Shown one piece after another: positions 50,810-52,520 of a stretch of 64,000 nucleotides of DNA. The position numbers and the translations under genes were made by a program. This DNA is from the human T2T-CHM13v2.0 reference genome, Homo sapiens. Below the pieces are notes generated by a model that did no database searches, was not told the DNA's origin, and worked only from the letters and a program-made list of their open reading frames with translations. The stretch lies in NCBI RefSeq assembly GCF_009914755.1, contig NC_060947.1, one strand, 5' to 3'. The first letter of the stretch is position 1. Each line of letters starts with the position of its first letter.

Positions 50810-52520
50810 ATGTTTAGTGATATTTAAATAAGCCTGAAACATATGATATGCAACTTTGGAAGGGAACATATTATGAGTGAACTTAGAAATACAGATGGAG
50901 GTTGATACTAGTGAGATATCCTAGGAACCTGTTAGAGTTATAGACTTCCTGTAGCCTCATCTATGGAAGAGATTCCAGAATTCCTAGGAAATATGGATGT
51001 AGGTTTGCAGATGGAGAGTGGATTGAACGCAGATGAGGATTAGATTAATTTTTGATGACATTGTCTAAAGCTGAGATATAAACTGGTGTTAATAATTAGA
51101 TTTTAGTTTACCTGTCAGCTCTCAGGAATACAAATTATTTTTCAATACACAGGTAAAAAAAAGTCTTGTATTAGTGGGGAGCCCTGGAGCTAATACAAAA
51201 TGTGTCATTTTTTAGGGCATTTATAATGACCAAGATAGTGTCATGGTTATAGGAGATAGACAAATCAGATGTCAATCTAATATGACACACTTCTGTGGGA
51301 CAAGGAAAGAGGAACACGTCTTTGAATTGCTTTGACCTGGTTAAAAATATTCCAAATGATGGTGTTTGTTACATTTGATGCAGTGTCTAGATGGGGTGAT
51401 CTCTTGGAGATGTAGACATGAAGAGAAGTCGACATCTCTCTTGATCCTGAGTGACAGTTGATGTAATAAAAGATTATGAGAATTCCAATCAAGGATAAAT
51501 AGTCTTGAATGGGTCATAGTTGCCAGCTGAGGGATGAGGTTTATTAATACAGATGAAATATTTGTGTGTGATCCTTCACTGGCAAGATGTTCACTCAGTT
51601 ACCTTCACAGAGTGGGTTGTTTAGGCCTCCTTCTACTCCTGGTGCAGTCTCACAGAACCTTTAAGTCTCTGGTACTTCTCTACATAGGCATTCACTATGC
51701 AGGATCATCTAGACATGAGTGAATTTCTCAGGTTTAAGAATTTCCCAATGGACAAGAATCGAGTAAATAATTTTATAATACACTTAACCTGACTGTAAGG
51801 TGTATGCGAGGCTATCTCCTACTAATTAGTATTAATTTGGTACGTGCTCTGAAAGTACAATTTTATAAAAATCCATGATTATTAGAGCAAATAGAGAAGG
51901 TTGGAGAATCAATTAAAAGGATGAAATTCTTGCATAATGGCTGTATGGAGGCTTGTGGTTATCTTGGTAGATTCTTTTTTTTTTTTTTTTTTTCCTCATA
52001 GCACCTTGACCTTCATGGAGAAGACATATGGGCAAAGAACCTCTGTCTGTGAAGTAATTTGTGCTCTTGATTTTGAACTTTATGTTTGTTTTTTTTTTTT
52101 CTTTTTGAGACGGAGTCTTGCTCTGTCACACGGGATGGAGTGCAGTGGCGCAATCTCGGCTCACTGCAAGCTCCGCCTCCCAGGTTCACGCCATTCTCCT
52201 GCCTCAACCTCCCGAGTAGCTGGGACTACAGGTGCCTGCCACCACGCCCGGCTATTTTTTTTTTTTTTTTTTTGTATTTTTAGTAGAGACGGGGTTTCAC
52301 CGTGTTAGCCAGGATGGTCTCAATCTCCTGATCTCGTGATTTGCCCACCTCGGCCTCCCAAAGTGCTGGGATTACAGGTGTGCGCCACTGTGCCCGGCCG
52401 AACTTTGTGTTCTTGATTTTGAGAAGTGGCTTAATTTATCTGCTTCCCATGACTGCCGACATGAACATATTATTTGAATTTAAAGGGGTAATAATGAACT
52501 AGAAACTGAGAAAGGACTTG
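50810..52520 (-). mobile_element. Decayed Ty3/Gypsy (Sushi-like) pol relic: RNase H, integrase zinc finger, integrase core (best-supported part 50999-51460)
   Basis: Manual minus-strand translation gives DLSISYNHDTILVIINAL/KMTHFVLAPGLPT...LF...SNY*HQFISQL*...STLHLQT, matching the Gypsy integrase pattern DLPxSxGxDTILVVVDxLTKMAHFxPxxGLPT...LF...SDRGxQFxSxFW...SAxHPQT; outer boundaries tentative. Confidence 0.75.
52087..52399 (-). mobile_element. AluY
   Basis: gcaagctccgcctcccaggttcacgccattc; TSD gaactttatgtt / gaactttgtgtt. Confidence 0.95.

What the first reader, a model, noticed from the sequence alone, without database searches (positions are those of the whole stretch)
50810..52520. Hidden Ty3/Gypsy (Sushi-like) RNase H-integrase fossil in apparently unique human DNA
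Seen: minus-strand translation across stops and frameshifts gives motifs in the correct Gypsy pol order. RNase [12 protein letters not shown] (52059-52027, cf. NYxxxDRELLAI), QGA (cf. EGA), IYQDNHK (51972-51952, cf. VYTDHK), then EILKPEKF (51744-51721). Integrase zinc finger: CHSGSRE...PHL...WNIFNQVK...PLSLSHR (ORF 51277-51492; W and F are single-base changes from the CxxC cysteines). Integrase core: DLSISYNHDTILVIINAL, a frameshift, then KMTHFVLAPGLPT...LF...SNY*HQFISQL*...STLHLQT (51266-50999). Weaker GPY/F-like traces (PF, VAY) lie near 50810-50870. Established: mammals have no active Gypsy elements; Sushi-ichi-derived SIRH/RTL/Mart genes (PEG10, RTL1, many X-linked) mostly lack a recognisable integrase; MamGyp-type relics exist in repeat libraries. 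Inference: this is a very old insertion (an L2 abuts it and an AluY interrupts it) that preserves the integrase end of the lineage behind the RTL genes. It could be an unannotated relic or the detached pol tail of a nearby RTL locus. It does not encode a functional protein.
Basis: partly seen in the sequence, partly recalled or inferred. Interest (0 to 1): 0.8.

Follow-up and report, generated by a model that had tools for sequence, protein, structure and literature searches.

The report
Faint Gypsy-type integrase fossil, chrX
About 400-500 bases of this gene-poor stretch of the human X chromosome probably hold the badly decayed integrase part of an ancient Gypsy-type retrotransposon; it is dead DNA of a kind already known in mammals, and the rest of the proposed element cannot be told from chance.

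Summary
Only the integrase catalytic core beats controls.

Standard searches find nothing:
- Pfam on stop-read-through frames gave 0 families.
- PDB gave nothing relevant and the Atlas nothing usable.
- Stop density is random-like.

I built a frameshift-aware profile alignment from 37 Ty3/Gypsy pol proteins.
- It gives a collinear chain at 51388-51002 (minus strand) to the CxxC plus the integrase core.
- The core alone scores 29.5 bits.
- Controls: 0 of 1685 shuffles (max 23.1), 0 of 1291 other window positions (max 21.0) and 0 of 1176 positions in six other human loci (max 23.7) reach it.
- The result depends on the penalties. With strict ones and no band, 9% of shuffles match it.
- A second profile from 39 other proteins gives p about 0.004.

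Not above chance: RNase H, the zinc finger as a profile, and the C-terminal traces. The nearest Sushi-gag locus is 0.89 Mb away.

Verdict: probably (about 0.6) a real, very old, non-functional integrase relic. Gypsy traces in human DNA are already described (PMC5753468). Interest is low to moderate.

The parts
51002..51388 (-). Frameshift-aware chain to the Gypsy integrase profile, columns 273-399 (CxxC of the zinc finger plus the catalytic core). It has 117 aligned codons in 11 blocks, four frameshifts and one in-frame stop. Main blocks: RHCIKCNKHHHLE, LTSDLSISYNHDTILVIINAL, MTHFVLAPGLPTN, QFISQL*TMSSKINLILICVQSTLHLQT.
   Evidence: 30.65 bits against 17.54 +/- 2.03 in 300 shuffles (0 reach it) and 0 of 100 window tiles. 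Core only, anchored: 29.52 bits. Among the 12 most conserved profile columns, 6 match (C275, C278, D308, P362, F373, H396), 1 mismatches (G360) and 5 are unaligned. 78 of 117 aligned codons score positive and 34 equal the commonest residue.
51371..51478 (-). Stop-free H-x4-H-x26-C-x2-C pattern inside the 85-codon open frame 51344-51598. It is a possible integrase zinc finger, about 31 codons before the aligned first catalytic D.
   Evidence: one of only 4 such patterns in six frames of the 64-kb window. Against: spacing in the panel is x6 (34 of 37) and x29 (35 of 37), and the profile test of these columns is not significant.
53402..53521 (-). Possible trace of the reverse-transcriptase N-terminal motif (RKKNL*MRIC ... 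LYPLP). It is roughly collinear with the integrase chain once the two Alus are bridged. Uncertain.
   Evidence: 19.1 bits, the best upstream match within the band; 5.6% of 747 shuffles reach it.
51952..52059 (-). The strings are present, but they are not supported as RNase H.
   Evidence: the best in-band RNase H match is 11.1 bits and lies elsewhere (51857-51831); 85% of shuffles do as well. The highest plain HMMER chunk of the window (7.1 bits, 51974-52147) aligns lysine-rich text, partly Alu tail, to the linker columns 129-188.
52076..52403 (-). Alu insertion upstream of the supported part. This is context, not part of the relic.
   Evidence: two 7SL-like matches at 52284-52398 and 52105-52252; it pairs with another Alu at 47670-48003. 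The subfamily was not determined.
50311..50574 (+). Old L1 3' fragment next to the low-coordinate end of the region. It probably runs on to an A-rich end near 50800. This is context.
   Evidence: 75% and 74% identity over 265-267 nt to the ORF2 3' ends of the two L1 copies of this window. Those copies carry RVT_1.

Best explanation
Window 51480-51000 (T2T chrX about 77,985,000-77,985,480), minus strand, is the remnant of the integrase gene of an ancient LTR retrotransposon of the Ty3/Gypsy type. What remains is a possible zinc finger and, more securely, the DDE catalytic core. It decayed neutrally far beyond the state of ordinary mammalian Gypsy relics, and no other part of the element is demonstrable. 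It does nothing now: it has no open frame, no partner domains and no LTRs. It is a molecular fossil. An L1 fragment and Alus landed around it later. Shown here: a collinear, frameshift-tolerant similarity to integrase profiles that exceeds all controls run. Inferred: the Gypsy assignment and the great age.
For: Main test:
- The profile came from 37 database proteins. All 38 proteins checked (one was then dropped) carry RVT_1, RT_RNaseH and Integrase_H2C2.
- The core, anchored on the CxxC, scores 29.52 bits. 0 of 1685 shuffles reach it (max 23.14; Gumbel p about 1e-5).
- It is the top of 1308 anchors over both strands of the window, where the next best is 21.02.
- 0 of 1176 anchors in 60 kb from six other human loci reach it (max 23.72).

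Other controls:
- Profile with shuffled columns: 2 of 200 reach the unanchored score. With blocks of 10 columns shuffled: 0 of 200. Reversed profile: 18.1 bits.
- A separate profile from 39 other proteins gives 26.44 bits over 51467-50967; 7 of 1620 shuffles reach it.
- A full pol profile again puts this chain first in 11 kb on both strands (28.3 bits).

Supporting detail:
- A stop-free HHCC pattern, defined beforehand, lies in the right place. It is one of 4 in the window.
- The relic has the Gypsy residue, not the gamma-ERV one, at columns 313, 331, 365, 375 and 396.

The method recovers real relics: L016 64 bits, the chr14 1000-codon exon 110, the chr14 1358-codon ORF 98.
Against: - Standard tools see nothing. 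Pfam gave 0 families at E<=10 for the three read-through frames, for six frames of 45001-57000, and no integrase family for five open-frame pieces. PDB phmmer gave only E 0.33-1 to unrelated proteins. The Atlas gave no usable hit.
- The same Pfam pipeline scores a genuine Gypsy-type RNase H relic at E 2e-25. This one is therefore far weaker than known relics.
- The result depends on penalties that I chose among three sets. Strict and unbanded: 18.46 bits, with 9% of 400 shuffles and 11 of 100 tiles as good. Loose: 1 of 300 shuffles but 7 of 100 tiles.
- An unrelated L1 ORF2 3' part reaches 29.9 bits in the unanchored test with the zinc-finger columns included.
- Single Gypsy proteins reach at most 28.0 bits against a null maximum of 27.5 (77 proteins, 616 null comparisons).
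- There is no DNA or tblastx similarity to three other human relics, and only a self match in the genome.
- The second catalytic D column is unaligned and the E was not identified.
- HHCC spacing differs from the panel's.
- If the first stage screened very many windows, chance cases at the core score alone are expected. I estimate 0.01-0.04 per window.
Confidence: 0.6

Rival explanations
1. Chance resemblance. The region is ordinary old AT-rich intergenic DNA. The motif islands are what a motivated reading, or a permissive alignment, finds somewhere in many windows.
For: - All standard searches were negative.
- Stop density and the longest open frame are random-like.
- With strict penalties the result is not significant.
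- The zinc finger, RNase H and C-terminus are all at noise level, and the RT trace reaches only p 0.056.
- Single sequences do not exceed the null.
- The real-DNA tail looks heavier than the fitted Gumbel: 4 anchors of 1176 score 23 or more.
- The region was picked by eye for exactly this likeness.
Against: - The core chain is 8 to 9 sd above both the shuffle null and the real-DNA null. It is unmatched in 2467 real anchors and 1685 shuffles.
- It survives profile decoys and a second profile.
- An HHCC pattern defined beforehand sits at the expected distance upstream.
Confidence: 0.3
2. A real integrase relic, but from another integrase-bearing element such as an old endogenous retrovirus (for example class III/ERV-L) rather than a Gypsy element.
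For: - The Gypsy profile also scores gamma-type ERV integrases at 54-180 bits, so on its own it does not discriminate.
- From general knowledge (no call here): ERV internal sequence is far commoner in human DNA than Gypsy sequence.
Against: At the five aligned columns where the panel and the 11 ERV copies differ, the relic has the panel's residue each time. That comparison is biased toward the profile used for the alignment. ERV-L-type integrases were not compared.
Confidence: 0.1

Closest known systems
MamGyp-int and other ancient LTR/Gypsy traces of the human genome (Repbase/Dfam; Kojima 2018, PMC5753468, passages read)
   Same: Dead, fragmentary pol sequence of a Gypsy-type LTR retrotransposon in mammalian DNA, with stops and frameshifts and no activity.
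   Different: - It is much weaker than the natural relic used as control: L016 gets 53 bits in plain HMMER and Pfam E 2e-25.
- Only the integrase core is detectable, and no LTRs were found.
- Similarity to the MamGyp-int consensus itself could not be tested, because no Dfam library is held here.
Sushi-derived RTL/SIRH genes (the chr14 1358-codon ORF, which I take from memory to be RTL1, and the X-linked DUF4939 loci)
   Same: Descent from Ty3/Gypsy elements. The chr14 ORF still carries RT_RNaseH_2 at 80 bits.
   Different: - Those are intact, selected genes that keep gag. This is a decayed integrase piece with no gag nearby.
- The nearest DUF4939 locus is 0.89 Mb away.
- No evidence ties it to the Sushi clade in particular.
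Integrase relics at chr12:17.41 Mb (L034) and chr10:62.40 Mb (L031)
   Same: Integrase zinc finger, core and C-terminal SH3-like region are recognisable with the same profile: 129.7 bits for L034, 88 plus 58 for L031.
   Different: - They are three to four times stronger.
- They carry the ERV-type residue at column 396.
- They show no pairwise DNA or tblastx similarity to the window.

Membership tests
Ty3/Gypsy (Metaviridae-type) pol relic | Integrase catalytic core (rve, DDE) recognisable by profile | tested here: met
   Own Gypsy profile, frameshift-aware: 29.52 bits. 0 of 1685 shuffles and 0 of 2467 real-DNA anchors reach it. The first D column is matched, the second D is unaligned and the E was not found. 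Pfam's own rve model is not matched.
Ty3/Gypsy (Metaviridae-type) pol relic | Integrase H2C2 zinc finger | tested here: inconclusive
   A stop-free H-x4-H-x26-C-x2-C lies at 51478-51371. Its spacing is unlike the panel's x6/x29. The profile test gave 12.97 bits, with 23% of 2066 shuffles as good.
Ty3/Gypsy (Metaviridae-type) pol relic | RNase H domain upstream of the integrase | tested here: not met
   In-band best is 11.1 bits, and 85% of 1364 shuffles do as well. The plain HMMER hit there is lysine-rich low complexity that includes Alu tail.
Ty3/Gypsy (Metaviridae-type) pol relic | Reverse transcriptase domain upstream | tested here: inconclusive
   19.1 bits at 53521-53402, collinear after X-bridging the two Alus; 5.6% of 747 shuffles reach it. 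No RVT_1 in Pfam.
Ty3/Gypsy (Metaviridae-type) pol relic | Integrase C-terminal SH3 (GPY/F) module or chromodomain | tested here: not met
   Best in-band score is 15.3 bits, with 9.5% of 740 shuffles as good, after X-bridging the L1 fragment.
Ty3/Gypsy (Metaviridae-type) pol relic | Flanking LTRs | tested here: not met
   Direct repeats of 40 nt or more in 46000-58000 are Alu-Alu pairs plus one unrelated pair at 46072/47115. Old LTRs could be beyond this tool's reach.
Ty3/Gypsy (Metaviridae-type) pol relic | Curated model match (Pfam gathering score, or Dfam MamGyp-int) | tested here: not met
   Pfam: 0 relevant families. Dfam is not held here, so that half is not testable.
Sushi-ichi / RTL (SIRH, Mart) lineage | Sushi-type gag (DUF4939) at or beside the locus, or clade-specific similarity | tested here: not met
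   11 DUF4939 loci in the genome. The nearest is C23:77094285-77094539, 890 kb from the relic. Clade assignment within Gypsy was not tested.
Endogenous retrovirus (gamma-type) integrase | ERV-type residues at columns that separate ERV copies from Gypsy proteins | tested here: not met
   At columns 313, 331, 365, 375 and 396 the relic has L, K, I, S, H, as the Gypsy panel does. The ERV copies have M, G, L, A, R. The test is biased by alignment to the Gypsy profile.

The most novel reading that the evidence does not exclude
The relic is a pre-eutherian (amniote-age or older) Gypsy integrase remnant. It would be much older than the MamGyp-int copies and missed by repeat libraries, and so a rare surviving piece of the pol end of the retrotransposon population from which the mammalian RTL/PEG10 genes were drawn.
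Probability: 0.1. Interest if true: 0.5.

Novelty: new member of a known kind. Interest (0 to 1): 0.22.

Why it matters
It matters little for biology. It is non-functional intergenic DNA, and ancient Gypsy traces in the human genome are already catalogued.

It has two modest uses.
- If real, it shows that frameshift-aware profile alignment with empirical nulls can recover retroelement relics below the reach of Pfam/HMMER six-frame scans. That bears on how much 'unique' mammalian DNA is very old transposon debris.
- Dated across mammals, such a piece could add one data point on when Gypsy elements were last active in the lineage that domesticated the RTL genes.

Tried and rejected
- Pfam hmmscan of X-read-through frames: three frames of 50800-52075, six frames of 45001-57000, five open-frame pieces. 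No integrase, RNase H or RT family. The only hits were ETS_PEA3_N at E 0.089 and M64_N at 0.23, which I take as noise.
- PDB phmmer: forkhead and a glucosidase at E 0.33-1.
- ESM Atlas on the 85-codon frame: no usable hit.
- Own-genome DNA search of 50800-52075 and 52404-52841: self only. The tool cannot see old repeats, so this does not show uniqueness.
- Genome-wide Pfam H2C2, RT_RNaseH_2 and SH3_Tf2-1 scans: the window is not among the scored matches. Only 150 of 990, 150 of 2250 and 11 of 11 candidates were scored.
- Plain hmmsearch --max with my profile: on whole frames, 4 domains, all with negative scores. On 120-residue chunks, the top chunk (7.1 bits) is a lysine-rich artefact.
- blastn and tblastx against three natural human relics: only poly-A noise.
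- 77 single Gypsy proteins with BLOSUM62: not above the null.
- Long X-bridged chain from RT to integrase with loose penalties: 70.1 bits against 55.1 +/- 7.5, with 5 of 150 shuffles and 10 of 44 tiles as good. Not significant; many of the high tiles are L1.
- Search for LTRs: none.
- The idea that 52404-52700 and the stretch just below the Alu are an L2 3' end rests on my memory only. No tool here holds L2, so it was left untested.
- The search of earlier findings was not open.
60 kb was used instead.

Full report
WHAT WAS CLAIMED AND WHAT IS THERE

All the peptide strings it quoted are present at the stated coordinates.

The surroundings are as follows.
- An Alu lies at 52076-52403 on the minus strand. 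Two 7SL-like matches confirm it.
- A second Alu lies at 52863-53163 on the plus strand.
- An older L1 3' fragment lies on the plus strand from at least 50311 to 50574. It is 75% identical to the ORF2 ends of the two L1 copies of this window. Those copies carry RVT_1.
- A run of 19 T on the plus strand at 51975-51993 produces the lysine run inside the supposed RNase H.

NO CODING SIGNAL, AND NOTHING FOR STANDARD TOOLS

The three minus-strand frames of 50800-52075 hold 23, 25 and 25 stops in about 425 codons each.
- In total that is 73 stops, against 78.8 +/- 5.5 in 500 dinucleotide shuffles.
- The longest open stretch is 85 codons. 25% of shuffles match or exceed it.

Pfam hmmscan with X at the stops gave no useful result.
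- 0 families at E<=10 for these three frames.
- 0 families for all six frames of 45001-57000.
- No integrase family for five open-frame pieces scanned alone.

Other searches were also blank.
- PDB phmmer gave only unrelated proteins at E 0.33-1.
- The Atlas gave no usable hit.
- The DNA matches only itself in the genome. That search cannot see old repeats.

The pipeline itself works. A stop-bearing Gypsy-type RNase H relic on chr15 (L016) gives PF17917 at E 2e-25. At this point the finding looked like motif pareidolia.

A TARGETED, FRAMESHIFT-AWARE TEST

I searched with the pol part of the 1358-codon chr14 ORF (L024). From memory this is RTL1; it carries RT_RNaseH_2 at 80 bits. The search found 52,528 relatives, and I kept the best 150.

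I checked 38 long ones in Pfam. All 38 carry RVT_1, RT_RNaseH(_2) and Integrase_H2C2. Most also carry rve, SH3_Tf2-1 and Chromo, and two carry DUF4939. From 37 of them I built a 576-column RNase H-integrase profile.

Plain hmmsearch --max found nothing real. The best chunk of the whole window (7.1 bits, 51974-52147) aligns lysine-rich text, partly Alu tail, to the linker columns.

I then wrote a local profile-to-DNA alignment that allows frameshifts. It recovers the controls: L016 64 bits, the chr14 1000-codon exon (NYNRIN, from memory) 110 bits, L024 98 bits.

On 50800-52075 minus, the outcome depends on the penalties (gap open, gap extend, frameshift).
- Strict (7/1/7): 18.46 bits against 16.07 +/- 1.71. 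9% of 400 shuffles and 11 of 100 window tiles do as well.
- Intermediate (5/0.5/5): 30.65 bits against 17.54 +/- 2.03. 0 of 300 shuffles and 0 of 100 tiles reach it.
- Loose (4/0.25/4): 51.04 bits against 34.28 +/- 5.15. 1 of 300 shuffles and 7 of 100 tiles reach it.
- The runner-up tile under intermediate penalties (29.9 bits, 11485-12760) is an L1 ORF2 3' part. It is a false positive of the unanchored test.

ANATOMY OF THE CHAIN

Window 51388-51002 aligns to columns 273-399. There are 117 codons in 11 blocks, with four frame changes and one stop.

The main blocks are:
- RHCIKCNKHHHLE, which holds the CxxC columns;
- VILD;
- LTSDLSISYNHDTILVIINAL;
- K and MTHFVLAPGLPTN;
- TRLFFTCVL;
- QFISQL*TMSSKINLILICVQSTLHLQT.

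Of the 12 most conserved profile columns between 225 and 420:
- six are matched (C275, C278, D308, P362, F373, H396);
- one is mismatched (G360);
- five are unaligned, including both zinc-finger histidines and the second catalytic D.

78 of the 117 aligned codons score positive, and 34 equal the commonest residue.

Its zinc-finger reading, which treats W and F as former cysteines, is not needed. The other frame, the 85-codon open frame 51344-51598, holds a stop-free H-x4-H-x26-C-x2-C at 51478-51371.

CONTROLS ON THE CORE ALONE

I excluded the zinc-finger columns. I also confined the alignment to +/-30 codons around the diagonal set by the CxxC.
- The core scores 29.52 bits against 12.89 +/- 2.01 in 1685 shuffles. 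The maximum is 23.14, none reach it, and the fitted Gumbel p is about 1e-5.
- With strict penalties it scores 18.46 bits, and 0.6% of 1818 shuffles reach it.
- On real DNA, of 1308 anchors tiling both strands of the window, the two covering this site are first. The other 1291 have mean 12.53, sd 1.92 and maximum 21.02.
- 1176 anchors in 60 kb from six arbitrary human loci have a maximum of 23.72.

Profile decoys on the real DNA gave these results.
- Reversed profile: 18.1 bits.
- Columns shuffled: 2 of 200 reach 30.65.
- Blocks of ten columns shuffled: 0 of 200.

Two further checks agree.
- A second profile from 39 proteins not used before gives 26.44 bits over 51467-50967. 7 of 1620 shuffles reach it, and the best other tile of 158 scores 24.1.
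- A 1104-column full pol profile again ranks this chain first in 11 kb on both strands, at 28.3 bits.

WHAT FAILS
- RNase H, in band: 11.1 bits, with 85% of 1364 shuffles as good.
- Zinc finger as a profile: 12.97 bits, with 23% of 2066 shuffles as good.
- HHCC spacing: the panel's is x6 (34 of 37) and x29 (35 of 37), not x4 and x26.
- C-terminal SH3 and chromodomain, with the L1 bridged by X: 15.3 bits, 9.5% of 740 shuffles.
- Reverse transcriptase: one trace at 53521-53402 (RKKNL*MRIC ... LYPLP). It is collinear once both Alus are bridged by X, but scores only 19.1 bits, and 5.6% of 747 shuffles reach it.
- Long chain under loose penalties: not significant.
- Single Gypsy proteins: none beat the null.
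- Three natural human relics (L016, L031, L034): no pairwise similarity to the window.
- LTRs: no pair flanks the site.

WEIGHING

The core score alone, with the somewhat heavy real-DNA tail, should turn up by chance about 0.01-0.04 times per 64-kb window. I also chose among three penalty sets. A screen of very many windows would therefore meet chance cases.

Three things raise the odds that this one is real.
- The HHCC pattern was defined beforehand and lies at the right distance.
- The RT trace is marginal but in the right place.
- The result holds with a second profile.

Three things lower the odds.
- Every curated tool is silent.
- Neighbouring domains are absent.
- The region was selected by eye for this likeness.

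I put a real integrase relic at about 0.7. Within that, about 0.6 is for the Gypsy type and about 0.1 for another integrase-bearing element. Chance gets about 0.3.

WHICH KIND

My profile also scores 11 gamma-type ERV integrase copies at 54-180 bits, so it is not specific to Gypsy. Five aligned columns separate those copies from the panel: 313, 331, 365, 375 and 396. At all five the relic has the panel's residue. This leans toward Gypsy. It is biased, though, because the alignment was optimised on that profile, and ERV-L-type integrases were not compared.

Nothing supports the Sushi clade in particular. The 11 DUF4939 loci of the genome include one at C23:77094285-77094539 (RTL3, from memory). 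It lies 890 kb from the relic, at lower coordinates. A minus-strand gene's downstream pol would lie lower still, not higher. The 'detached pol tail' idea is therefore not supported.

KNOWN OR NEW

[quoted passage not shown] It lists MamGyp-int, its LTRs, and X1-X4_LR. My one literature search found 21 papers that use these names. I made no search for this locus.

Whether this stretch is already masked as such cannot be checked here, because no Dfam or RepeatMasker track is held. NCBI's mask in the hub's note covers only 30% of the window and lists no stretch inside 50810-52075 among its longest.

At best this is a new, unusually decayed member of a known kind. It has no function.

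Noticed in passing
window 1-2965 and 9995-12762, + strand: Two L1 3' halves with RVT_1 (77.6 bits, and 75.9 plus 57.7 bits across a frameshift). Their cysteine-rich ORF2 ends give a false 25-30 bits against the Gypsy RNase H-integrase profile in the unanchored test.
   Followed up: partly
L034 = G000:C12:17410000-17419000, locus 5053-4027, minus strand: A well-kept integrase relic or gene piece on chr12. It scores 129.7 bits over profile columns 209-575, including an SH3_Tf2-1-like end (18.1 bits in Pfam), and has the ERV-type residue at column 396. Its identity was not established.
   Followed up: partly
L031 = G000:C10:62397000-62406000, locus 4193-4434 and 5280-6111, + strand: An integrase relic on chr10 split by about 850 bases. 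The zinc finger scores 58 bits (Pfam H2C2 49 bits), and the core to SH3 scores 88 bits.
   Followed up: partly
L016 = G000:C15:69117132-69120341, minus strand: An isolated Gypsy-type RNase H relic with stops (PF17917 at E 2e-25). Used as the positive control.
   Followed up: partly
window 50800-52075: Strong strand asymmetry: on the minus strand C is 0.219 against G 0.143, with GC skew up to +0.37 on the plus strand. It is unexplained. It could be a compositional remnant of an old element or a transcription- or replication-linked bias.
   Followed up: no
window 46072-46167 and 47115-47210: A 96-nt direct repeat pair at 75% identity, 1043 bases apart. It is unrelated to the Alus and was not identified.
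   Followed up: no
window 52203-52254 (-), 53014-53065 (+), 52127-52186 (+), 53082-53141 (-): Sub-threshold Rfam matches to mir-1268 and mir-3135, all inside the two Alus. These are Alu-derived look-alikes, not evidence of miRNA genes.
   Followed up: no
window 50262-50287: A 13-nt unit repeated twice, just outside the 5' edge of the L1 fragment.
   Followed up: no
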